A stretch of 64,000 nucleotides of DNA, from assembly GCA_024679065.1 (NCBI GenBank), contig JAGIQG010000005.1, positions 37,076,001 to 37,140,000 on the forward strand, read 5' to 3'. Under the pieces are notes generated by a model. The model saw nothing but the letters and a program-made list of their open reading frames with translations, made no database searches and had not been told where the DNA came from. A program made the position numbers and the translations under genes. The DNA comes from Sphyrna mokarran (lineage: Eukaryota). This document shows, piece after piece, positions 27,286-64,000 of the stretch. Position 1 is the stretch's first letter. Every line of letters starts with the position of its first letter.

Positions 27286-29193
27286 ACATTAAAGGTAACA
27301 TTATAATTAGATAGGTTTTAAAGGTGAAGCAATAAGCTCAGGACAGAAATCTAGTTTTTAAAATTCATTTTTAGGACATGGACAACTCTATTAACAGTGT
27401 ATAGTTTTCTTTTTGATCCTTCAGCAATCTTGTGTTTCTCATTGCTGATTAGTATTTCACAATGTGCTTCAACACACTCATACTTAAAACATTCTGCTAT
27501 AAACAAAATGTCTATTTATTCCTTGACACTTTTATTCTGCAATCTACCACCAATCACTCCTCCACAAAGTCAGATTTTTTACTAGAAAACATTTATAAAT
27601 AAGTTAATCGCTGCAAACTCCTTTAATCTTGCATTAAATGACAGGCATTACTGCACATGCCTTACTGCACCGCACATACTGAGACAACTGTCTCAGCTAA
27701 AATGCGATATATGCCTGGAAGAATCACTTTGTTTAGTGGAGAGAAAGTACTTGACAGAAAAATACAAACCAATTGAACAAATAAAACCAGTTTAATATTT
27801 GTTGTGAAACATGTTATATTGATTTACAAGGGATGTGCATCATCAATTAAATTAGACTTCATAGGATTAGGATGTTGTCACTGGAGAATGCATAGACATT
27901 ATAAAATGCAGATGGGTTGTTCAACCGAATCAGTCTGTGTCTATGCTTTATACTAATCCTATGTTCTGTTACCATATTCCTTATATTCACTCTTTTTCTT
28001 CAATTAACTTGTAAACTATTAGAGCAGATAATCAAAAGCTCAATCAAAGAGGTAGGTTTTAAGGGACAAATGAAACCAATTTATTGTTTATTATTTGTTG
28101 TGAAACAAGTTGACAATGGATGTGCCTCTAAACGACACTTGATAGAATCAGGATTTTATCATTGGAGAATTACATATAAATTATAAAATGCAAATAGGAG
28201 TTATTATTTTATTGCAGTAATAAGAGCTGAAGAGAGCTATTTACTGAGGGAATTTCATGAGCTTAGCATCTTGGCAGGTCAAGGCATGACCATTGCTGTA
28301 GGGCAAACCCAGGAAGTATAAGCTGCAGCAGGACAGGAATGAATGGAAAGGGTTAATCAGACAGCCTGACTATAGTATTCACACTCACTCTGGGCAGATA
28401 TGACAAATTACCAGACCATACTAACACAGTCACATCCTCAGCGAGATCTTACTGAGGTTATAGCAACAATAAGAGAATCAATATTTTATCAAGGCTCCAA
28501 AAGGCATTGTGCCTCTGGAAAACTGATCAAGAGGGAGAATTTAGCATGGCCAATGCACTACCTCCCACAGATCTCTCCACAGATGCTGCCAGACAAGCTA
28601 AGTTTTTCCAGCATTTTGTTTTTAATTCAGATTTTCAGCATCAGCAGTATTTCTTGATTACTTTCTTCAGACTCTTGATTAATGAGACAATCAGGGATTA
28701 TGGGGAAAAGGCAGGAGAATGGGGGATGAGAAAAATATCAGCCATTTTTGAATGGCAGAGCAGACTTGATGGGCCAAATGGCCTAATTCTACTTCCATGT
28801 CCTATGGTCTTATACTTTATCCATCCTTAGCCCGTCTTCCAGTTCTGGGTCTATATCTACGTAGATTATTGCACCTCAAGTCCATGTTTTTTTTTAAATA
28901 TGATTAAAGTTTTTGCCTCTAACAGCGAATTTTAGATCACCACCATCCTCTGGATGAAAAAAAAAATTAAATGCTTCCAATTCTTCAATGGACACCTCTT
29001 TCTTGTTTCTTGATTTGTCGAGTTAGCACTCTGCTATCTTGCAACGCCAGCAATTTTGATCAATAGATCCCTCTAACTCTCCAACTATGTTTTTTTCTCG
29101 TTTGTTCGACTCTGAATCTGTATTCATACATCCCAGTTCCAGCCGCCGCGCATGCGCGTCTATCTTACTCCACCCCCTCCCGGGGCGGGACTT

Positions 29194-29375
29194 GTTGCCA
29201 CGGCAACAGTGCCACGCCACGTCCCTTCGCCCACGCGGGAGAGGAGGGGTGATTGCCATGGCAGCGCAGCAACGGCATGCTTCCTCCCCGATGGTTGCCA
29301 TGGCAGCTGGTCCAGGCCACGCCCCCTCCTCCTCCTCGCCGCCATTTTCCGCGGCGGTTTGGTAACCATGGCGAT
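29194..29375. promoter_or_regulatory. Cluster of four RFX X-box-like palindromes
   Basis: GTTGCCACGGCAAC 29194-29207; ATTGCCATGGCAGC 29252-29265; GTTGCCATGGCAGC 29294-29307; GTAACCATGGCGAT 29362-29375 (overlaps the start codon). Compared with the X-box consensus GTTGCCATGGCAAC. Confidence 0.7.
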
Positions 29376-29661
29376 CACTCCAGCTCAGGTCTTCGCGGTG
29401 CTGTTGTCGGATCCGGAGAAGAGTAAACGGTGTCGGACCGAGGACTGCCCCGTTAAATCGCCTGCGCCATCCTCGTTACCCTCTCCGGCCGGCGAGCGGG
29501 AGGTACAGGTCAGCGCCTCAGCCGAGGTGTCGGCGCCCCCTAACCGGGCCCGGCTGTGCGTGCTGGTGAGCAGTAGCAAGGAGGCAGCGGCGGCGGCCAA
29601 GAGCAGCGTCAACCGGCGGCTCGACTACATCTTGCAGAGCGTCCGGGCCCACGGCGTGCGA
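29368..29661 (+). CDS. IRAK1BP1: IRAK1BP1 (interleukin-1 receptor-associated kinase 1-binding protein 1, SIMPL domain) coding exon 1
   Basis: ATG in Kozak context (accATGG) inside a CpG island. Encodes MAITPAQVFAVLL...REVQVSASAEVSAPPNRARLCVLVSSSKEAAAAAKSSVNRRLDYILQSVRAHGVR, matching the recalled IRAK1BP1 N-terminal SIMPL region. Phase-0 donor CGA|gtaagg at 29662. Confidence 0.93.
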
Positions 29662-29894
29662 GTAAGGGAGAGAGTACCGGTGGGGAGCTGCTTGCAGCCC
29701 TCCCTCTCTGTTTCTTTCTTAAAAGTTACTCTATTCTTATGGTTACAAAACCAGTACACAGAGCCCTGATCCATCTCATTAATCCAAAAAACAATTCGTG
29801 ACCCTCACAAGAGATCCAAGCTAACAAGAAAAGGCATCTGATATTGGGTTTGATCTGATTCTTTAATCTGTTGTTGTTAGACTGCTTACTAAGA

Positions 29895-30802
29895 TTTAAG
29901 TCCAACAGGTTTATTTGGTGGCAAAATCCAATGGCTTTCAGAGTGCTGCTCCAGATAAATGGGAGTTTTGTTCACAAACAGGGCATATAAAGACACAAAC
30001 TCAATTTACAAAATAGTGGTTGTAATGTGAATCTTTATAGGCAATCAAGTTTTAAAGGTACAGACAGTGTGAGAGGCGAGAGCGTTAAGCACAGGTTAAA
30101 GAGATGCGTATTGCTTCCAGACAGGTCAGTTACTGAGATTTTGCAAGCCCAAGCAAATCGTGAGGGTTACAGGTAGTGTGACATAAACCCAAGATCCCGG
30201 TTGAGGCTGCCTCATGTGTGCGGAACTTGGCTATCTGGCTCTGCTCAATGACTGCGTTGTCATATGTCGTGAAGGCTGCCTCTGATCTTCGCTTACCCAA
30301 AGATTAGAGGCCGAGTAACTGTGAGCGGTCATGGGCATTTGGCCTCTGATCTTCAGATAAGCCTTCTCCAAGGCAGCCTACATGACAATGCAAAATCACT
30401 GAGCTGAGACTGGTAGCCAAGTTCCGCATACATGAGGACGGCCACAACCGGGATCTTGGGTTCATGTCACGTTATCTGTTACCTCCATGATTTGCCTGGG
30501 CTTGCAAAATCTGTCCTGCCTGGAGACAATACACATCTCTTTAAACTGTGCATAATGCTTTCTCCACTCACGTTGTTTGTACTTTTAAGACTTGATTGCC
30601 TATAAAGATTTGTATTTCAACCATTATTTTGTAAATTGAGTTTATGTCTTTATACGCCCTGTTTGTGAACAGAACTCCCACTTACCTGACAAAACAGCAG
30701 CGCTCTGAAAGCTAATGGCTTTTGCTACCAAATAAATCTGTTGGACTTTAAGAAGCCAGGTTAATGTGTTTACTCCAGTCTAACATTGGCATCTCCGTAT
30801 CT
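29895..30802. mobile_element. Penelope-like fold-back (two 3' portions in inverted orientation) in IRAK1BP1 intron 1
   Basis: The left arm (29895-~30310) is the reverse complement of the right arm (~30340-30750). The right arm matches 12890-13310. Confidence 0.85.
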
Positions 30803-34911: not shown

Positions 34912-35838
34912 CTAGTAAATTAGTAAATTTGCGGATGACACTAAAGTTGGTGGAGTGGTAGATAGTGAAGAGGGGTGTTATAGTTTGCAGAGAGACTTGG
35001 ACAAGTTGCAGAGCTGGGCTGAGAGATGGCAAATGGAGTTTAATGTGGAAAAGTGTGAGGTAATGCACTTTGGCAGGAATAATAAATGTGTAGAGTATAG
35101 GGCTAATGGTAGGATTCTTAATAGTGTTGATGAACAGAGGGATCTTGGTGTATTTGTGCATAGATCCCTGAAAGTAGGCAGTCAAGTCTATAAGGTTGTT
35201 AAGAAGGCATACGGAGTCTTAGCTTTTATTGGTAGGGGGATTGAATTTCGGAGCCGCAACGTCATGTTGCAACTGTACAAAACTCTAGTGCGGCCGCACT
35301 TGGAGTATTGTGTGCAGTTCTGGTCCCCACATTATAAGAAAGATGTGGAGGCATTGGAGAGGGTACAGAGGAGGTTTACCAGGATGTTGCCTGGTATGGA
35401 GGGCAGGTCTTATGAAGAGAGGCTGAGGGATTTGAGGTTGTTTTCGTTAGAAAGGAAGCGGCTAAGAGGGGACCTTATTGAAACATATAAGATGATTAGA
35501 GGTTTAGATAGGGTGGACAGTGATAGCCTTTTTCCTAGGATGGAGAAAGCTAGCACGAGGGGACACAGCTTTAAATTAAGGGGTGATAGTTATAGGACGG
35601 ATATCAGAGGTAGGTTCTTTACCCAGAGGGTGGTTAGGGAGTGGAATGCCCTGCCTGCGGCAGTTGTAGATGCGCCAAGTTTGGTGGCGTTTAAGAGGTT
35701 AGTTGATAAGTTTATGGAAGAGAAGGGAATGGTTTAGTTTGGAGAGTCATTGCTTTTTTCATAATTGGTCGGCGCAACATCGAAGGCCGAAGGGTCTGTT
35801 CTGCGCTGTAATGTTCTATGTTCTATGTTCCATGTTCT
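34912..35838 (+). mobile_element. Young 5'-truncated CR1-clade LINE (RT C-terminus and 3' UTR) in IRAK1BP1 intron 1
   Basis: Open frame SKFADDTKVGG...WQMEFNVEKCEVMHFG...RPHLEYCVQFWSP...RRRL/KRLRGDLIE...FFTQRVVREWNALP, followed by a (GTTCTAT)n tail. Confidence 0.95.
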
Positions 35839-43898: not shown

Positions 43899-44673
43899 TG
43901 AAATAAAGATATTGTACAAATTGTAATAGCATGTGAATTTATCATTGAGTGGGAGATTTTATTAATGCAGAAATTTGGATATCTAGCAGATTAATAAAAC
44001 CATGGCCATTTACACAAGTACCTCAGAGAATCGCCAATTCCCTGCCACAACTTAGATGGAAGATTCCTAGTATTTATTCCAGAGATCCAGAGTTTGTTTT
44101 ACTCCAGATAAGGCCAGTGCGCGAGCTGACAAGAGTGAATAACAAAGTTAACTCTTGTGTCTCATTTACATCTCCCATGCAACTCACTGCCCGGTTATGT
44201 AACAGAAATTTCAGTAGCAAGTATTATGACCTCAGGTACTGGTCCTCATTCAAGTCCAACTGAGTATTCTAAGCAGGGGAGGCCCGAGATTTCCTTTTGC
44301 AACTCTGAGGAGAATTTATGTTCTGGCCCCAGCAACTTTGTCTGATATGTTTCACTCATTAGAGGAGTCACCACTGTTACCCTGCTCTTGTTACAAAATC
44401 AGATTGGATTTGATGATATTAGAGTGCAACTGCATATTTGTAGAGGACCTTGATAACTTGAAGCAGGTGCCCTTGCTTTCCACAATGTAAAAAGGGAATC
44501 ATCCAAATTAGGACTGATGAGGACTAGATAAATCCCCTGCTCCTTTTTAACTACTCTGCTGTCTATTTATTAATGGGACATTAAAATCTGAGGCCTTAAT
44601 ATCACCTACAATATCTTTCAACTAAAAGTGCATAAAATAAAATTTAATCCAAGTTCCTGTTTGTTTCATATAG

Positions 44674-44944
44674 ACGACAAGCATGTCTTCGAGCTGTTGC
44701 TAACTCTCGGCGTAAAGCATTTGAGGTGTGCCGATTGCTTGGCCAGACTCTGGGCAAACCTTTGATTGTCCGGGAAGAAGAAACCAAAGAAAGTGAAGGT
44801 CTAACTACCGAAGCACCGTCATCAGACAATATGAGGTCATTGACAATTCAGCAGCAAATTAGCAATGCATCTGTGACTGTTTGTTCCAAAGTGTTTGTGA
44901 CTTTTGAGCTTAAATCAAAAGATAATCTCAAAAGGAATAATTAA
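44674..44944 (+). CDS. IRAK1BP1: IRAK1BP1 coding exon 4 (terminal, to TAA)
   Basis: Acceptor ttcatatag| in phase 2, matching exon 3. Encodes RQACLRAVANSRRKAFEVCRLLGQTLGKPLIVREEETKE...SKVFVTFELKSKDNLKRNN*. Total CDS 294+66+131+271 = 762 nt = 253 aa plus stop. Confidence 0.93.
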
Positions 44945-47823: not shown

Positions 47824-49078
47824 TCATAATGGGTAGGTCGTGCCTTACTAACCTTATTGAGTTTTTTGAAAAAGTGACCAAAGAGGTGGATGGGGTAAGG
47901 CGGTTGATGTATATATGGACTTTAGTAAGGCATTCGATAACGTGTCCCATGGAAAGCTTCTGCAGAAAATGCAGATGTATGGGATAGAGGGTGATTTAGC
48001 TAATTGGATTAGGAATTGGCTAGCAGATAGAAGACAGAGGGTGGTGGTTGATGGGAGATATTCATCGTGGAGTTCGGTGACAAGTGGTGTACCTCAGGGG
48101 TCTGTTTTGGGGCCCCTGCTGTTTGTAATTTTTATAAATGATCGGGAGGAGGGTATTGAAGGATGGATTAGTAAATTTGCAGATGACACTAAAGTCGGTG
48201 GAGTGGTAGATAGTGAAGAGGGGTGTTATAGTTTGCAGAGGGACTTAGACAAGTTGCTGAGCTGGGCCGAGAGGTGGCAAATGGAGTTTAATGTGGAAAA
48301 GCGTGAGGTAATGCACTATGGCAGGAATAATAAATGTGTAGAGTCTAGGGCTAATGGTAGGATTCTTAGTAGTCTTGATGAACAGAGGGATCTTGGTGTG
48401 TATGTGCATAGATCCCTGAAAGTAGGCAGTCAAGTCGAGAAGGTTGTTAAGAAGGCATATGGAGTCTTAGCTTTTAATGGTAGGGGGATTGAATTTCGGA
48501 GCCGCAACGTCATGTTGCAACTGTACAAAACTCTAGTGCAGCCGCACTTGGAGTATTGTGTGCAGTTCTGGTCCCCACATTATAAGAAAGATGGGAGGCA
48601 TTGGAGAGGGTACAGAGGAGGTTTACCAGGATGTTGCCTGGTATGGAGGGCAGGTCCTATGAAGAGAGGTTGAAGGATTTGAGGTTGTTTCGTTAGAAAG
48701 GAGGCGGCTAAGAGGGGATCTTATTGAAGCATATAAGATGATTAGAGGTTTAGATAGGGTGGACAGTGATAGCCTTTTTCCTAGGATGGAGAAAGCTAGC
48801 ACGAGGGGACACAGCTTTAAATTAAAGGGGTGATAGTTATAGGACGGATATCAGAGGTAGGTTCTTTACCCAGAGGGTGGTTCGGGAGTGGAATGCCCTG
48901 CCTGCGGCAGTTGTAGATGCGCCAAGTTTGGTGGCGTTTAAAGAGGTTAGTTGATAAGTTTATGGAGAAGGGAATGGTTTAGTTTGGAGGGTCATTGCTT
49001 TTTTCATAATTGGTCGGTGCAACATCGAAGGCCGAAGGGCCTGTTCTGCGCTGTAATGTTCTATTCTATTCTATTCTC
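47824..49078 (+). mobile_element. Young 5'-truncated CR1 LINE, same subfamily, with frameshifts
   Basis: GRSCLTNLIEFFE, DFSKAFD, SGVPQGSVLGPLLF and FADDTK RT motifs; (TTCTA)n tail; near-identical to the 34.9 kb and 59.1 kb copies where they overlap. Confidence 0.95.
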
Positions 49079-57166: not shown

Positions 57167-57262
57167 TCAGTCATGTGGGTAGATTTGCAACAGCCATGGC
57201 ATCATTATGTACTGGTCTCCAAAATACATGCTGAAATAATACGTTAACAGAGGATGGAACAC
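57167..57262 (-). CDS. YccV/HspQ-like domain protein, terminal coding exon (to TGA)
   Basis: Acceptor ttatatttttag|. Encodes VFHPLLTYYFSMYFGDQYIMMPWLLQIYPHD*, with the YccV C-terminal HP..YF..[FY]xG..Y...YPxD pattern. Phase 0. Confidence 0.85.
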   Translation of the reverse strand: MFHPLLTYYFSMYFGDQYIMMPWLLQIYPHD

Positions 57263-57832
57263 CTAAAAATATAACAACAATGCAAAATTGGTCAGATTTC
57301 AGTGAATAAATAGCACGTGGATAACAAATCTGAAGGCCTATAAGCAGCCTTGAAGTCCTGGAGTAATCTCTACGTGCATGTTGATGTTGAATGAAGGCAG
57401 TATTGGATCTCAGCTGTGACGCAGTATTTAATTACATGGACTAGCAACACATTCTATCAAAGCCCACACGTGACTAATGGGTACTAGGGAGAGGTACTAT
57501 GGAATTGTATCCCAGGAAGTAGGTCAATGTTTCTGGGAAAGAACAGAAGGAAACTGATAGGAAAGAGGAAAAACTCTGGAGTCCATAACCAGCAGTAATT
57601 TAGACAGAAATATGATTAGCTGTCCAATCTTTGCAGTTTTCTATTTCAAGGTCTCAATGGACACCCAAGGCATCTTTAATAAAGGAGATTACAAGGCTTT
57701 CAAGTTTCTATCTTGGTTTAGCATTATTTTCTTATACTTTAACAAGGTCAGGCATCTACACCAGTCCTGAATCACTCACTTCATAAGTGATATACATCAT
57801 TCAATAGCTTTTCACCATAACAAATGAAGTTC

Positions 57833-58290
57833 ATTTGGAATACTGCGTCCAGTTCTGGTCGCCTTACTACTGGAAGGATGTGGAGACTCTGGAGAGAGTG
57901 CAGAGCACGTTTATCAGGATGCTGCCTGGTATGGAAGGTCTGAGTTACGAGGAGAGGTTAGGCAAATTGGGACTGTTTTCCTTAGAAAGACGTAGACTTA
58001 GAGGAGATCTAACAGAGGCGTACAAGATTATGAGGGGTATAGATAGAGTAAACAGGGTTAAGCTTTTTCCTAGGATGGACTCGAATAGCACGAGGAGTCA
58101 CGGGCTTAGGGTGAGGGGGGGGGTAAGGTATAATTTGAATGCTAGAGGGAGTTTTTTCACACAGAGGGTGGTGCGGGTATGGAATGCGTTGCCAAGTGGT
58201 GGAGGCAGGTACTCTGGAGTTATTTAAGAAATACTTAGATAGGCACATGAACAGAATGGGAATGGAGGATTACAGAAAACTGATTTAAAA
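57833..58290 (+). mobile_element. CR1 LINE 3' fragment, different subfamily
   Basis: EYCVQFWSPYY...ERRRLRGDLTEAYKIMRG...FFTQRVVRVWNALP. Confidence 0.88.
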
Positions 58291-58487
58291 TAGGGATCGT
58301 GAGCCTTGGGAGTCCCTGGGAAGTGTGTAAATAGATGATGATATTGATGTACTTGTTTTTATCCTACAGGTGCTTTGGTCTACACATACACGCGATGGAT
58401 CGTGAGAGGGCCGCTCTTGGATTTTTTTTTTGGAGAGTATCCTAGTGCTTCACGTCGTTACTGTACACTTGACCTGTACCATTTGAT

Positions 58488-58778
58488 GGGCAACATGACA
58501 GCTCAGTGACTATCGCCGTGCTGTGCAGATACATGGATTTGGGCCTGTGTCTGTGGGAGTTTGCACATTCTCCGGGCGCTCCAGTTTCCTCCCACATCCC
58601 AAAGATGTGCTCTTAGGTGGATTGGCAGAACAAATTCTCCCTAAATTGTCTCAAATTTGGTTTTTAATCCATAGACCTATAAACATAGACAGGGATCACG
58701 GGTAGAGGTGGGAACATCGGGGTGGCGGCGCAGGCTCATTGGGCCGAAGAGCCTGTTTCCCGTGCTGTTTTGTTCTTT
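58488..58778 (+). mobile_element. V-SINE subfamily with the third tail type
   Basis: Core gtgggagtttgcacattctcc...ccagtttcctcccacatcccaaagatgtg; tail gggccgaagagcctgtttcccgtgctgttttgttc. Confidence 0.8.
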
Positions 58779-59087
58779 GTATCAGTTTGAGTTCAAACTT
58801 TTGGCATTGATTTTTTCTTCTCCTTCGCTGAGGCACTAAGATTTATGTGATAAGTTAACAGCTTATTTCATTTCCACCCTAAGATCAAGTAAGAATTTGC
58901 TTTGCAAACTACCTTCAATATGGCAGTTGTTTGAATAATTCACCCAGTCGGATCTGAAACATTGAAATAGTGTATCAAGATCATGATCAAATGCAAAATT
59001 AAATCCTGATAAGTTTCTGGAGATCATTTTTCAATAATTGAAGCTTCTCTGATCACAGAATAAAATGAAACTCCAAAGATGTGCACT

Positions 59088-60087
59088 TGTCGGTGACAAG
59101 TGGTGTGCCTCAGGGGTCTGTTTTGGGGCCCCTGCTGTTTGTAATTTTTATAAATGATCTGGATGAGGGTATTGAGGGATGGATCAGTAAATTTGCAGAT
59201 GATACTAAAGTTGGTGGAGTGGTAGATAGTGAAGAGGGGTGTTTTAGTTTACAGAGTGACTTGGACAAGTTGCAGAGCTGGGCCGAGAGGTGGCAAATGG
59301 AGTTTAATGTGGAAAAGTGTGAGGTAATGCACTTTGGCAGGAACAATAAATGTGTAGAGTATAGGGCTAATGGTAGGGCTCTTAATAGTGTTGAGGAACA
59401 GAAGGATCTTGGTGTATGTGTCAATAGATCCCTGAAAGTAGGCAGTCAAGTGGATAAAGTTGTTAAGAAGGCATATGGAGTCTTAGCTTTTATTGGTAGG
59501 GGGATTGAATTTAGGAGCCGCAGCATCATGTTGCAACTGTACAAAACTCTAGTGCGGCCGCACTTGGAGTATTGTGTGCAGTTCTGGTCCCCACATTATA
59601 AGAAAGATGTGGAGGCATTGGAGAGGGTACAGAGGAGGTTTACCAGGATGTTGCCTGGTATGGAGGGCAGGTCCTATGAAGAGAGGTTGAAGGATTTGAG
59701 GTTGTTTTCGTTAGAAAGGAGGCGGCTAAGAGGGGATCTTATTGAAGCATATAAGATGATTAGAGGTTTAGATAGGGTGGACAGTGATAGCCTTTTTCCT
59801 AGGATGGAGAAAGCTAGCACGAGGGGACACAGCTTTAGATTAAGGGGTATGAGTTATAGGACGGATATCAGAGGTAGGTTCTTTACTCAAAGAGTGATTA
59901 GGGAGTGGAATGCCCTGCCTGCAGCTGTTGTAGATGCGCCAAGTTTGGTGGCGTTTAAGAGGTTAATTGATAAGTATATGGAAGAGAAGGGAATGGTTTA
60001 GTTTGGAGGGGCATTGCTTTTTATTTTGGTCGGCACAACATCGAAGGCCGAAGGGCCTGTTCTGTGCTGTAATGTTCTATGTTCTAT
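59088..60087 (+). mobile_element. Young 5'-truncated CR1 LINE, same subfamily, antisense in the last intron of the YccV-like gene
   Basis: Uninterrupted ~300-codon RT C-terminus (VTSGVPQGSVLGPLLF...EEKGMV*) and a GTTCTAT tail. Confidence 0.95.
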
Positions 60088-60311
60088 TAGGTTGAGTGGC
60101 CGTATTAAAATTGACCATTAGTATCGGCGAGATTAGCAGGATAAATATGTGGGGGTTATGGGGATAGGGCTGGATAGGATTGTTGGTGCAAGCTCAATGG
60201 GCTGAAAGGCCTCCTTCTGCATTGTAAGTATAGTATGAAACTTCAGGTATCCTTCACTTCCACTTTTACACAGCACCTCACCCACAAGTCCACCCGCACT
60301 CAAACACATAC

Positions 60312-60422
60312 CTGTACACCAGTCACTATGACAATTTCACTCTCTGGAATATAGGCTGTTTTTGAAGTTCCTCCATCAACTGCATTAATCAGAACTTTAT
60401 AATGAGGAGTATTTCTCAAATT
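60312..60422 (-). CDS. YccV/HspQ-like domain protein, penultimate coding exon (111 nt)
   Basis: Acceptor tttttatctatag| and donor |gtatgt. Encodes NLRNTPHYKVLINAVDGGTSKTAYIPESEIVIVTGVQ, with the YccV-type P-x-Y-x-VL and Y-[IV]-x-[EQ] motifs. Phase 0/0. Confidence 0.85.
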
Positions 60423-62084
60423 CTATAGATAAAAATATATCAGTGGTTATGTGTCTGTGCAACAAAAAGGTAAAGCATTACCCACTTGCATAATTAAAAA
60501 CGTTCCAGTAGAATATAAGCAGGATTTTATTCTGTGGTCCTTAATGGCTAATTCCAATGTGACACAGAGAAACAAAAAAGTGAAGATTACATTTTAAACC
60601 ATGGATGGAATTTTCCAGTAAAAAAATGGCAACATGCCAAGTTCTGATTGAAAACTGGCATGTTTCTCCCCAGAAACAGTTGGGTTTACACTCCAGATCT
60701 TCTGACACTTCATTAGAAATAAAACAGGAGCTCATTTTTTGCACCATCATTCTGGTGGTGCGACGCCACATAGAGCTGGTAAGGTTGGCTCCACAGAGAT
60801 CAGGATGACATTTTTAAAGGGTGGTCCAATCTCAAAGTAACAGGCCCCCTCTCTCCACTCCCCCACCACCCTTCCACACACACATGCGCGCGCGGAAAAC
60901 ACAGCAACACCTTGACTACAAAGGTATAATATTCCCCAGTGCTAAATGTTGGAAATACACCCCCCCCAACCCCAGCAGCATTTGGGCTTCGGGGTAATAG
61001 AGATTGGTCTGCTGCAAATCCCATTATGGCCCTCTTGTGAAAGCTTGTGGCCTTAACAAGATTTGCGGCCATGGAGAACAGACCCTGAAAAGTCCTCCAT
61101 TAAAGCAAAACATACATTAGGGCTACTTGTCCTGGATTATCTTTCCTTCCCTTGAAAAATATTCCTCATCTCTGAAGTAATGCAACGTCCAAAATATATT
61201 TTCCGTCTGCCTTTAGCAACACGGGCTGAACATTGGCATCATGATTAAAATGTAAATTGAAATCTTTTGGGGTTTTGGACTCTGAGTCCCTGACCCCCTT
61301 CTCCCACCCCCAACATAAAAGCCAGTCACAAGTCCATCTGTATTTGGCCAGCTAACCGGAGCTAAAATAACCAACAGGCTGTTTCTGTTCTAAGGCAGGC
61401 CTTCCACCCCATTGGAGAGAAAATCCACCTCTGAGAACTGCCAGAGGACTGATAGCACTGCTGAGACGAGGGAGCAATCGGGGGCACTGGCCACTGGCCA
61501 CTGCTGGAACTGCAGGCAGCCTCAGTGAGGAGCTGCCAAAGAAGCCCAGACTTAAAGATAAGTTTGATTTCTTGCCAGACTGAAGCTGGGATGGAAGAAT
61601 TACCACGGGAGTGGGGGTAGTGCTGTTGATGGGCTCCGGGTGATTAAAGGGGGCCCACCCACTTGACTGGTCACCAATTCATCAGTTTTCACCTGGTGGC
61701 CCAGACATCTGATGCCAGCTTTCCCAACTACTGCTAAATCACAGTGAGAGCACAGAGGATGGGCAAGCGATGACACGCTGCTACAGTCATGGTGCTCGAT
61801 TCCTCACCTGCCATCCCACTTCCATGGGTCTAAAAATTCTAATGTTTGAGTGCAATGGAGGTCAATAGCAGGCTAGATCAAGATCAAATTCATGGAGATA
61901 ATTTAGTGAGATTGAAAAAAAATAAATGGAAAGATAAACCGGGGAGCTCCTTTATTTTCTTGCAAAGCTTTTCTGCTGTTAACTTGGTATTGTCTTAGCA
62001 ATGACAAATAAATAGTATTTGGACAGATCCCTCAACAGATGCCAGTACACTCAACAAAATTTCCTTTGTGCATCCTTCTCATAC

Positions 62085-62248
62085 CTGCATGTCGGATGAA
62101 TATCTTTCATCAAGCCATTCTTCTGGGGCTCTGGCTTTTTCATCCCAGCCGACAATTACACCGTAGTATCCTTCCTGCTTGTGCGTGAAGACCTGTCCTA
62201 CCCTGTATTTGACAGTCAATGGCCTTGGAGACCGAGGCTCAGCTGAGC
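62085..62248 (-). CDS. YccV/HspQ-like (hemimethylated DNA-binding) domain protein, internal coding exon (164 nt)
   Basis: Minus-strand acceptor ttgtttaattag| and donor |gtatga. Encodes (x)SAEPRSPRPLTVKYRVGQVFTHKQEGYYGVIVGWDEKARAPEEWLDERYSSDMQ, containing the YccV signature KY/FxVGQVxxHxxxGYxGVIxGWD. Phase 1/0. Confidence 0.88.
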
Positions 62249-64000
62249 CTAATTAAACAAGTAGGAAATTGCATTTTTAAGAAGGGTGCATTGAAATTTA
62301 ATTTGGAGTCTTTGAAGAATTCTCTTAGTGGGAATACCATTCATCAATAAGTTTACATTTCAAACTGATGCTTCAAATTATTTTGATGCAATTGTATTAA
62401 AACCCGTTATTTTTGAAGATTGGATTAAAATTGGTTCCTCCTAGCAGTATGGGACAGATTTAGTTCATGGTCTTGGAAATGAAAGAACATTTTGGTAACT
62501 CAGTTTCCCAAGTTCTAAGCAGTCTTGTTAATGAAATCAGTATTTTTGCCCAAACGTGATGAACATTTGTCTTTACGCATTTAAATGCGCAAACTATCGT
62601 ATTCAGCTAAAAGCAGAAAGTTTCCTGAAGCACAACAAAGCTAAACATTGAATAGCGCTGAGATAGCAAAGCCCAAAGCAAATTAAGATTTTGGAGAGTG
62701 CACAGATCTTACTGTGGTCATCATCCTACATTTTGGCTTTGGAGAGAATACAGTGAAGGGCAACACAACTGATATCAGGGATCAAACATCCAAGATTAAA
62801 ATACAAGAGGAATCTGAGAAAATATGGAAATTACGGGTTCAATTTAGGACCAGGTTGTTTATGCAATCATGATTTGTGGACTCAAATTCGCAACAGTGAG
62901 AGTGAATCTCACTTGGGCCTGAATTTCTGCAGAGTTGGAGAGCCTCTCCATTGTTGGGAAATGGCAGGTGGGGCACAAATCTGGAAATCCTTCACCCGAA
63001 CACAATAAATAATTTTGCATGTTATGGTTCATGGCTGCAACTGGACACGTTAAAGTCCAGCTGTCTCAGGCAGATCTACTTACTGCTAGTGGAGTATTCA
63101 AAAACACAATCTGTGAACCTTAGACACGGTAGCAGAAAATTTAGAGATCACATTGTTCCTTAGAGGAATGGAACGCACTCTTTTGGATATAACCTGAAGA
63201 CATCTTTGGGAGAAGTAAAGTATCATTTGGGGCTATTAAAAGTAAACATAAGTGTGCATAAACTCATAAAGTTCTGATGAACTCGACCAATCAACAGACC
63301 TGTCATAAGGAATTGTTAGAAAGAACCTTTAGAAGGAATTCTCAGAAGAACTGCCAGAATGCTATCAAGCTGTCAAGGCACTTAAACATTTGAAAAAACT
63401 TGTGGTGTGATAAAAATCAATGCTTCCTATTTCTCTATCTGTATACACAAGTCAAAAGGAAGGCTATAAAGAGAGGATTTGTGCTGCATGATTGATTTCA
63501 CAATTTTCATTATCAGAGTGGGGTGTGTGTCAAATCACAGTTTGATTAGCAGCTTCAAGTGGTTGTAAACTCTTTGCAGTGAGGCTGTGAATTCCAATGT
63601 ATATTTTTATAAGAGATTAAAATAAGTTAAATGGAGTGAATAGGTTTTTAGTCAATAAGATTTTTTTTTAAATGTGAACTCATCAATAGACATTTAAGAA
63701 TGTTATTTAATCTCAGGACAGGTCTCAAGGTCTGCCCCCCCCGTGGGTACTGCATGGTAGGTGTAACAGCAAAGACTGCTAGCCCATGGGTTGCCATGAA
63801 TTGACACGGAGTTGTCATAGAGGCAATAAAGGTGATGGTGATGGGCAGAGGGACGTTAGAGCTATAAAATGCAACAGGGCTGGTGGAGGTACACGTGAAG
63901 GATAAAATGAGCCTGGAGTTGGGTAGGTGGACATGGAATGTATGGGGGGGCTATGTGAAAGCATGGGATGAGTATGATGGGTATATGGGGGAAAAGGTAT

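What the first reader, a model, noticed from the sequence alone, without database searches (positions are those of the whole stretch)
57167..62248. Spliced gene with a C-terminal YccV/HspQ-like domain, missed by the ORF track and convergent with IRAK1BP1
Seen: three minus-strand exons with canonical AG/GT sites and compatible phases (1/0, 0/0, 0/stop) splice into a stop-free 122-aa C-terminus: SAEPRSPRPLTVKYRVGQVFTHKQEGYYGVIVGWDEKARAPEEWLDERYSSDMQ-NLRNTPHYKVLINAVDGGTSKTAYIPESEIVIVTGVQ-VFHPLLTYYFSMYFGDQYIMMPWLLQIYPHD*. Established: this motif set defines the YccV-like fold of bacterial HspQ/YccV (a regulator of Lon and ClpS proteolysis, originally annotated as hemimethylated-DNA binding). In mammals it occurs in FBXO21 and POLDIP2. 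Inference: it is not POLDIP2, because no ApaG domain follows, and it does not resemble my recollection of FBXO21. It looks like the uncharacterised stand-alone YccV protein family of fishes and invertebrates. As I recall, the convergent neighbour of human IRAK1BP1 is PHIP with no such gene between them, so this may be an ancestral vertebrate gene lost in mammals, with unknown function.
Basis: partly seen in the sequence, partly recalled or inferred. Interest (0 to 1): 0.7.

Follow-up and report, generated by a model that had tools for sequence, protein, structure and literature searches.

The report
Membrane-anchored YccV protein, ancient animal family
This shark DNA holds a real, spliced gene for an unstudied protein, shared from single-celled relatives of animals to marsupials and likely lost in placental mammals, in which a likely membrane anchor carries a domain that in other proteins helps select targets for protein breakdown.

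Summary
The three exons are real. They are the last three of six coding exons of a 221-aa gene lying between IRAK1BP1 and PHIP; one contig from a probable RNA run supports three splice junctions. The gene is the shark orthologue of the uncharacterised gene named si:dkey-261l7.2 in fishes (a Brugia relative is named tag-229; bird and turtle copies are mislabelled FBXO21). It is neither FBXO21 (a separate gene in this genome) nor POLDIP2. It is not a stand-alone YccV domain: an N-terminal hydrophobic helix with a conserved P-x-Q motif and amphipathic helices precede the domain. The family reaches from choanoflagellates and an ichthyosporean to birds and marsupials, so it is older than vertebrates and was not lost in all mammals; loss in placentals is likely, not shown. 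Best reading: a single-pass membrane protein whose YccV domain binds client proteins for quality control, probably facing the ER lumen (one member has an inserted PDI-type domain). Location and function are inferred. No paper on the family was found in the library searched.

The parts
62249..64000 (-). In-window part of intron 3. The gene continues beyond the window's end (window numbering continued; G000:C1104 position = 37076000 + n): coding exon 3 at 64514-64435 (acidic linker), coding exon 2 at 66184-66095 (90-nt frame-preserving cassette, amphipathic helices), coding exon 1 at 74886-74762 (start codon, hydrophobic helix with P20-x-Q22), and a candidate CpG promoter near 80600-81200 (inferred)
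   Evidence: tblastn of 11 homologues and splice-site fit; end of exon 3 is the loose end of the RNA contig at 62250; CpG patch
62085..62248 (-). Coding exon 4 (164 nt, phase 1/0): family-specific lead-in and first half of the YccV-like domain
   Evidence: PF08755 E 1.5e-13; covered by RNA contig
60312..60422 (-). Coding exon 5 (111 nt, phase 0/0): middle of the YccV-like domain
   Evidence: PF08755 positions 49-80; joint 60422/62085 in RNA contig
57167..57262 (-). Coding part of exon 6 (96 nt with stop): end of the domain and conserved C-terminal Y-P-x-D
   Evidence: its start is the loose end of the RNA contig at 60310
   Evidence: contig arithmetic; poly(A) signal scan

Best explanation
A six-exon shark gene encodes a 221-residue protein with an N-terminal hydrophobic helix, amphipathic helices and a C-terminal YccV/HspQ-like domain; it is likely a single-pass membrane protein whose YccV domain likely faces the ER lumen and likely binds client proteins for quality control. 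Steps: (1, shown) gene, splicing, domain and family. (2, strongly inferred) residues 6-28 are an uncleaved signal-anchor; its conserved intramembrane Pro and Gln would dock the protein on a partner membrane complex rather than act as a disposable targeting signal. (3, inferred) helices 33-73 lie on the membrane surface, and skipping the in-frame exon 2 removes them, which would tune location or partner binding. (4, inferred, about even odds) the C-terminal part is luminal (type II topology). (5, inferred from the other four characterised YccV proteins) the SH3-like barrel binds a peptide of a client or of a chaperone/protease machine and so selects proteins for folding control or degradation; it is not an enzyme and not a DNA-binding protein.
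For: Gene and family: 204 of 222 columns identical to the Mustelus asterias protein; RNA contig junctions; 99 clusters at 50% identity with E up to 1e-30, mostly 210-265 aa and matched end to end. Anchor: 19-residue hydropathy peak 1.6-1.9 at the N-terminus in 11 of 11 first homologues; Q22 invariant and P20, Y23 at 90% or more in 55 sequences not chosen for the motif; 85 of 150 listed representatives carry a hydrophobic run plus P-x-Q; a profile of residues 1-45 built without them scores three choanoflagellate, two unnamed related and the Amoebidium N-termini at 23.5-38.8 bits, reached by 0 of 200 shuffles each, while 8 anchorless YccV proteins score 2.4 bits or less; one continuous helix 6-28 in a model of mean pLDDT 87.5; no consistent signal-peptidase site by the recalled -1/-3 rule (column counts). 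Amphipathicity: best 18-mer moment above own shuffles in 73 of 85. Lumen: Amoebidium member P0242 has a CxxC thioredoxin domain inserted between anchor and YccV domain whose best 27 PDB matches are all PDI-family or ERdj5 proteins (E 1e-24 against 2e-7 for plain thioredoxin); an N-x-S/T site at residue 56 in 21 of 33 ray-finned-fish rows, with x and S/T varying; sequons elsewhere are under-represented (linker 15 against 37 expected, domain 9 against 14; 16 non-family YccV proteins 27 against 21), which needs exposure to the glycosylation machinery if it is selection. Adaptor role: closest folds PDIP38 (Z 7.5, rmsd 4.5, 90 aligned) and HspQ (Z 6.4, rmsd 3.1, 71 aligned); PDIP38's YccV domain docks on CLPX (PMC7647994, passages), FBXO21's binds substrates (10.1101/2024.12.13.628427, passages), HspQ regulates Lon and ClpS (PMC6719616, passages), ClpF is a plastid Clp adaptor (10.1101/2024.07.05.602318, passages).
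Against: No localisation, topology or binding was measured, and no signal/TM predictor was on hand. The PDI insert rests on one transcriptome-derived sequence on a long branch. Lys/Arg are more frequent after the helix than before it (mean 1.69 against 0.74; net charge higher after in 41, before in 24, equal in 20 of 85), which by the positive-inside rule leans to a cytosolic C-terminus. The teleost site sits at a helix start where N, S or D exchange, so it may be helix capping, and it is one inherited event; the shark protein and its close relatives lack it. Sequon depletion can come from structure and shared descent, and it removes positive evidence of glycosylation: the shark protein has no sequon and no Cys. 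All characterised YccV domains work in cytosol, mitochondrial matrix or plastid stroma, and the ER lumen has no AAA+ protease (own knowledge). Both fold matches are under Z 8. No catalytic or docking residue was mapped.
Confidence: 0.35

Rival explanations
1. Signal-anchored protein with the opposite topology: short N-terminus inside, amphipathic helices and YccV domain in the cytosol, on ER, mitochondrial outer membrane or lipid droplets, recruiting cytosolic clients to ubiquitin/p97 or similar machinery as FBXO21's domain does for SCF.
For: More Lys/Arg after the helix; moderate hydrophobicity; a Pro-containing hydrophobic helix followed by amphipathic helices also fits monotopic hairpin anchors (own knowledge); no Cys or sequon in the shark protein; known YccV domains are non-luminal.
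Against: PDI-type insert in P0242; teleost sequon; charge bias is weak.
Confidence: 0.27
2. Mitochondrial inner-membrane protein that presents its YccV domain to CLPXP, LONP1 or the membrane AAA proteases, a membrane-bound counterpart of POLDIP2.
For: Best fold matches are PDIP38 and HspQ; POLDIP2 also arose within Holozoa (10.1101/2020.07.24.219980, passages); weak Pfam Tom6 hits in 5 of 55 members (best E 0.0018).
Against: The N-terminus is hydrophobic from residue 6, not an Arg-rich presequence; PDI-type insert is an ER feature; the Tom6 hits were not followed and may be chance.
Confidence: 0.15
3. Cleaved signal peptide: a soluble luminal or secreted YccV protein whose mature N-terminus begins near the P-x-Q motif.
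For: Short n-region, often with Arg, then a 10-12 residue hydrophobic run; small residue two places before the Pro in 81%; Ser/Thr-rich linkers in some members.
Against: Hydrophobicity continues several residues past P-x-Q; candidate -3 positions are large or aromatic; the small residue is not kept in the choanoflagellate rows read; one continuous predicted helix.
Confidence: 0.12
4. Hemimethylated-DNA-binding protein, as the Pfam/UniProt label suggests.
For: Database names only.
Against: Membrane anchor; net charge of the domain part is -5; characterised members act as protein adaptors.
Confidence: 0.03
5. A truncated or recent duplicate of FBXO21, as the bird, turtle and marsupial annotations imply.
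For: Automatic names 'FBX21' and 'F-box only protein 21-like'.
Against: No F-box or transglutaminase-like domain; this genome's FBXO21-type gene lies on contig C772 with other intron positions in the domain; 33 identities in 113 columns to it against 46 in 122 to a choanoflagellate member; AU test rejects grouping it with the vertebrate members, p 0.003.
Confidence: 0.02

Closest known systems
si:dkey-261l7.2 (fish, shark, coelacanth annotation) / BMA-TAG-229 (Brugia) / 'FBXO21-like' of birds, turtles, marsupials, lamprey
   Same: Same gene family, full length; 92% identical to the Mustelus asterias protein; nested in a lamprey-to-marsupial clade (97/84).
   Different: Nothing; the family is annotated in databases but no paper on it was found.
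POLDIP2/PDIP38 (mitochondrial CLPXP adaptor)
   Same: YccV-like SH3 barrel (best structural match); holozoan range.
   Different: No ApaG/DUF525 domain; hydrophobic anchor and amphipathic helices instead of a matrix presequence; domain is C-terminal.
FBXO21 (SCF substrate receptor)
   Same: YccV domain near the C-terminus, closing with Y-P-x-D.
   Different: No F-box, no transglutaminase-like core; separate locus and introns; grouping rejected.
Bacterial HspQ/YccV (Lon and ClpS regulator)
   Same: Domain above the TIGR02097 cut-off (57.3 against 38.05 bits); PDB 5YCQ matched by sequence profile (E 0.0014) and fold.
   Different: HspQ is a soluble 105-residue protein; the shark-type protein has about 95 extra N-terminal residues with a membrane anchor; far below the PRK14129 cut-off (27.4 against 135).
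Plastid ClpF (UVR + YccV, Clp adaptor)
   Same: YccV domain in a proteolysis adaptor.
   Different: No UVR motif; ClpF-like rows fall outside the family.

Membership tests
Pfam YccV-like (PF08755) | Score above the gathering cut-off | tested here: met
   Exon 4: 51.3 bits against 22.8; 55 of 55 aligned members match
Pfam YccV-like (PF08755) | SH3-like beta-barrel as in HspQ and PDIP38 | tested here: met
   Model of the 92%-identical P0001, block pLDDT 91-98 over 101-222; top two of 48,161 chains are PDIP38 (Z 7.5) and HspQ (Z 6.4); Z under 8, so it supports the sequence match rather than standing alone
si:dkey-261l7.2 / tag-229 anchor-YccV family | N-terminal hydrophobic helix with P-x-Q, linker, C-terminal YccV domain, about 210-260 aa | tested here: met
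si:dkey-261l7.2 / tag-229 anchor-YccV family | Groups with the named orthologues in a tree | tested here: met
   Vertebrate clade 97/84; all 48 anchor rows on one side of a branch at 92/80 with 15 ungrouped rows among them; 67/86 in a 37-row tree, so deep monophyly is only moderately supported
si:dkey-261l7.2 / tag-229 anchor-YccV family | Conserved position between IRAK1BP1 and PHIP in other vertebrates | not testable with these tools
   Shown for this genome only; no other vertebrate genome can be searched
FBXO21 | N-terminal F-box | tested here: not met
   Complete 221-aa reading frame; YccV is the only Pfam family in P0001
FBXO21 | Transglutaminase-like core (PF13369) before YccV | tested here: not met
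   Absent here; present in P0218, P0226, P0243, whose cores match exons at the C772 locus of this genome
FBXO21 | Orthology | tested here: not met
   AU p 0.003 against grouping
POLDIP2/PDIP38 | C-terminal ApaG/DUF525 domain | tested here: not met
   Stop codon follows the YccV domain in the exon the RNA contig enters
POLDIP2/PDIP38 | Mitochondrial matrix import and CLPX docking | not testable with these tools
   No targeting predictor; no binding assay
HspQ (bacterial) | Stand-alone soluble protein of about 100 aa | tested here: not met
   221 aa with hydrophobic N-terminal helix
HspQ (bacterial) | Activates Lon, inhibits ClpS | not testable with these tools
   Biochemistry needed
ClpF | UVR motif before YccV | tested here: not met
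   Found in P0240 and P0241, not in family members scanned
Type II single-pass ER membrane protein | One N-terminal hydrophobic helix of about 20 residues | tested here: met
Type II single-pass ER membrane protein | Anchor not cleaved | tested here: inconclusive
   Column counts against the recalled -1/-3 rule only
Type II single-pass ER membrane protein | C-terminus in the lumen | tested here: inconclusive
   PDI insert and teleost sequon for; flanking charge against

The most novel reading that the evidence does not exclude
A third, undescribed class of animal YccV protein, as old as Holozoa: the first YccV/HspQ client-recognition module placed in the ER lumen on a P-x-Q membrane anchor, coupling disulphide-isomerase-type folding control to membrane-bound degradation, switched by a conserved skip of its amphipathic exon, and lost specifically on the placental-mammal line from the IRAK1BP1-PHIP interval.
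Probability: 0.25. Interest if true: 0.68.

Novelty: new variant of a known kind. Interest (0 to 1): 0.43.

Why it matters
Every characterised YccV protein (HspQ, ClpF, POLDIP2, FBXO21) steers proteins to a degradation machine. This family adds an architecture not seen in the papers searched, a membrane-anchored YccV domain, kept from unicellular holozoans to marsupials and testable in zebrafish, chicken and nematodes. Many bird, turtle and marsupial copies are mislabelled FBXO21, which misleads expression and gene-family studies. If placentals lost it, it is a candidate old proteostasis factor that humans and mice do without, which would explain why it has gone unstudied. The gene itself is not newly discovered: it is annotated, unnamed by function, in many genomes.

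Tried and rejected
Homodimer prediction of the full protein gave no verdict (score 0.00, alignment not used): no evidence either way. ESM Atlas: the whole protein found only chordate YccV clusters; residues 1-100 gave no usable hit. Foldseek's nitrile-hydratase beta and PWWP rows, and VIA's helix-hairpin rows for residues 1-75 (for example chains of the multipass translocon, Z 6.1), were judged generic. Runs X2-X4 held about a tenth of the words but laid nothing on 60250-62300: not used. The junction into exon 6 and out of exon 3 is seen only as loose ends, as those exons lay outside the stretch laid; exon 1/2 and 2/3 junctions and the non-coding exon were not observed. A first PDB search with a BRWD_AD exon found nothing; a bromodomain exon then identified PHIP (46 of 52 identical to the human domain). 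Read-through from PHIP was considered and set aside: PHIP's stop is 28 kb upstream of the start codon and a separate CpG patch lies between. Absence in placentals: no placental name among 11 of 11, 103 of 103 and 120 of 169 listed hits or the 21 of 30 clusters that carried a taxon, but squamates, crocodilians, frogs and monotremes are not named there either, so the lists cannot prove loss. Earlier-findings look-ups returned nothing. PMC4517768 (passages) and PMC533870 (one passage) were read and bear little on the family.
Full report
Observation. The three exons, their AG/GT ends, phases and the spliced 122-residue peptide are exactly as reported. Exon 62085-62246 matches PF08755 YccV-like at E 1.5e-13 and the next exon continues the profile. 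The window is G000:C1104:37076001-37140000, and the exon has one match in the genome; a family search finds two YccV loci, this one and one on contig C772.

Full gene. I took 200 kb beyond the window's end. Eleven homologues found with exon 4 map three further coding exons there. The best splice fit gives six coding exons (window numbering continued): 74886-74762, 66184-66095, 64514-64435, 62248-62085, 60422-60312, 57262-57167, all with GT-AG introns, for a 221-residue protein with 204 of 222 columns identical to the Mustelus asterias protein P0001. The organism is therefore a shark. One 2920-nt contig of run X1 (RNA by guess) joins 62085 to 60422, and its loose ends are the neighbouring exons; 3 of 4 runs laid nothing. 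Contig length implies about 310 nt of 5' UTR and about 1.9 kb of 3' UTR. A CpG-rich patch about 6 kb upstream of the ATG (GC 0.48-0.53, CpG obs/exp 0.98-1.11, single copy in the 264 kb examined) is the likely promoter (inferred).

Neighbours. IRAK1BP1 (PF04402) runs on the + strand from about 29.2 kb to its stop at 44944, 12 kb from this gene's stop. A BRWD-family gene lies upstream on the same strand, its last coding exon ending 28 kb before the ATG; a bromodomain exon of it is 46 of 52 identical to human PHIP and scores above BRWD1. A paper on human 6q14.1 lists HTR1B, MEI4, IRAK1BP1, PHIP, HMGN3, LCA5 and SH3BGRL2 in the region, with no gene between IRAK1BP1 and PHIP (PMC5732689, passages).

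Family and range. P0001 finds 103 proteins of 604 candidates: sharks, rays, chimaera, coelacanth, lungfish, bichir, teleosts (named si:dkey-261l7.2), turtles and birds (named FBX21 or FBXO21-like), molluscs and echinoderms. A profile search of 1.84 billion representatives gives 99 clusters at E up to 1e-30, mostly full-length matches of 210-265 aa. Of 30 clusters looked up, 21 carried a taxon: lampreys, axolotl, two marsupials, a bird, a tortoise, tunicate, bryozoan, snail, sea spider, mayfly, rotifer, cestode, nematodes (a Brugia member is named BMA-TAG-229), the sponge Sycon, three choanoflagellates and the ichthyosporean Amoebidium. An amniote-weighted profile adds Tasmanian devil and a caecilian; 120 of its 169 hits were listed and none is placental. 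Squamates, crocodilians, frogs and monotremes are not named either, so loss in placentals is likely (with the human gene list above, and my recollection that FBXO21 and POLDIP2 are the only human YccV proteins) but not shown.

Not FBXO21 or POLDIP2. YccV is the only Pfam family above noise in the members, apart from the thioredoxin insert of one. The C772 locus carries transglutaminase-like exons plus YccV exons with other intron positions, so it is this genome's FBXO21. In a 74-row tree of the domain (118 columns; rows: 47 anchor-bearing proteins picked from the hits, 25 other YccV hits, the two genes of this genome; no POLDIP2 or HspQ row was on hand), the gene sits in a lamprey-to-marsupial clade (97/84) and all 48 anchor rows lie on one side of a 92/80 branch, with 15 ungrouped rows among them; a 37-row tree gives 67/86 for that branch, and an AU test rejects joining the vertebrate members with this genome's FBXO21 (p 0.003).

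Anatomy. AlphaFold2 on P0001 with 79 sequences (mean pLDDT 87.5) gives helices 6-28, 33-54 and 57-73, a loose acidic linker, a short helix 84-91 and a confident domain from about 96 to 222 (a first model from 55 sequences reached 75.1). The best fold matches are PDIP38 and HspQ. Helix 6-28 is hydrophobic and carries Q22 (invariant) and P20, Y23 (90% or more) in 55 sequences not chosen for the motif; 85 of 150 listed representatives show the hydrophobic run plus P-x-Q (many of the rest are fragments or other YccV proteins). The N-terminal profile recognises held-out choanoflagellate and Amoebidium N-termini far above shuffles and does not recognise anchorless YccV proteins, so the anchor is homologous across Holozoa. 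The next helices are amphipathic (73 of 85 above own shuffles). They are encoded largely by the 90-nt exon 2, absent from annotated isoforms in a horn shark, a turtle, two marsupials and several teleosts, present in Tasmanian devil.

Which side of which membrane. For the ER lumen: the Amoebidium member carries a PDI-type CxxC domain inserted in frame between anchor and YccV domain; 21 of 33 ray-finned-fish rows have N-x-S/T at residue 56 (6 of the other 12 lack that region); sequons are otherwise scarce in the family but not in 16 other YccV proteins. Against: more basic residues after the helix than before, helix capping as another reading of the teleost site, relatedness inflating all counts, a single PDI-bearing sequence, and no luminal YccV precedent. 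I put the lumen at about even odds.

Mechanism. The characterised YccV domains are protein-binding modules of proteolysis: PDIP38's docks on the CLPX zinc-binding domain (PMC7647994, passages), FBXO21's is its substrate-binding domain (10.1101/2024.12.13.628427, passages), HspQ activates Lon and inhibits ClpS (PMC6719616, passages), and ClpF serves plastid Clp (10.1101/2024.07.05.602318, passages). By extension, this protein is most likely a membrane-tethered adaptor: the P-x-Q helix seats it in a partner complex, the amphipathic helices hold it at the membrane surface, and the barrel binds clients or a chaperone/protease. This step is inference; confidence in the whole chain is 0.35, in a membrane-anchored protein-binding adaptor of any topology about 0.65, in the gene and its orthology about 0.98.

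Novelty. The gene is annotated in many genomes but has no functional name. Searches for dkey-261l7.2, tag-229, 261l7.2 and three LOC numbers, YccV with zebrafish, YccV-like / FBXO21-like terms, synteny and gene-loss terms and YccV with membrane terms (20 of 10,204 listed) showed, in their listings, no paper on this family; the library lacks most subscription journals, and supplements were not searched. The passages read of a POLDIP2 evolution study trace only POLDIP2 (10.1101/2020.07.24.219980). Verdict: a real, conserved, uncharacterised gene; a new architectural variant of a known adaptor domain; interest 0.43.

Noticed in passing
window 29116-29766 and 44648-44944, + strand: First and last coding exons of IRAK1BP1 (SIMPL, PF04402); the window's only clear CpG island (29001-30000) covers the first exon.
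   Followed up: partly
G000:C1104, window numbering continued about 102932 to beyond 190000, - strand (L005-L014): PHIP: WD40, BRWD_AD, two bromodomain and last-exon pieces seen; full exon map not built.
   Followed up: partly
G000:C772:20569400-20594700 (L024-L027), - strand: This genome's FBXO21-type gene (transglutaminase-like exons plus three YccV exons).
   Followed up: partly
P0242 (Amoebidium parasiticum), residues 78-213: PDI-type thioredoxin domain inserted between anchor and YccV domain; single sequence, not checked against a genome.
   Followed up: partly
P0006, P0111, P0251, P0372, P0086, P0089, P0094-P0096, P0164: Recurrent isoforms lacking exon 2 (the amphipathic helices) across sharks, teleosts, turtles and marsupials; the tammar wallaby entry seen has this form and no isoform label.
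   Followed up: partly
(P0015-P0036, P0289-P0363 and others): Dozens of bird, turtle, marsupial and lamprey entries are named FBX21 or F-box only protein 21-like; those scanned have no F-box.
   Followed up: partly
P0171, P0214, P0223, P0236, P0213, P0227, P0228: Other YccV architectures in the hit list: tandem YccV plus TPR, LYR-like plus YccV, F-box plus YccV without the transglutaminase-like core.
   Followed up: no
P0143, P0173, P0179, P0238: Family members with long acidic or Ser/Thr-rich linkers (up to about 300 extra residues) between anchor and domain, so the spacing is free to vary.
   Followed up: no
window 34919-35734, 47870-48670, 57808-58224, 59069-59998: Fragments of CR1/L2-type LINE reverse-transcriptase ends (recognised by eye from translations), two of them in intron 5 of this gene.
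   Followed up: no
window 60655-60706: A second contig of run X1 matches two 18-nt pieces here in opposite orientation, suggesting a short inverted repeat shared with another transcript.
   Followed up: no
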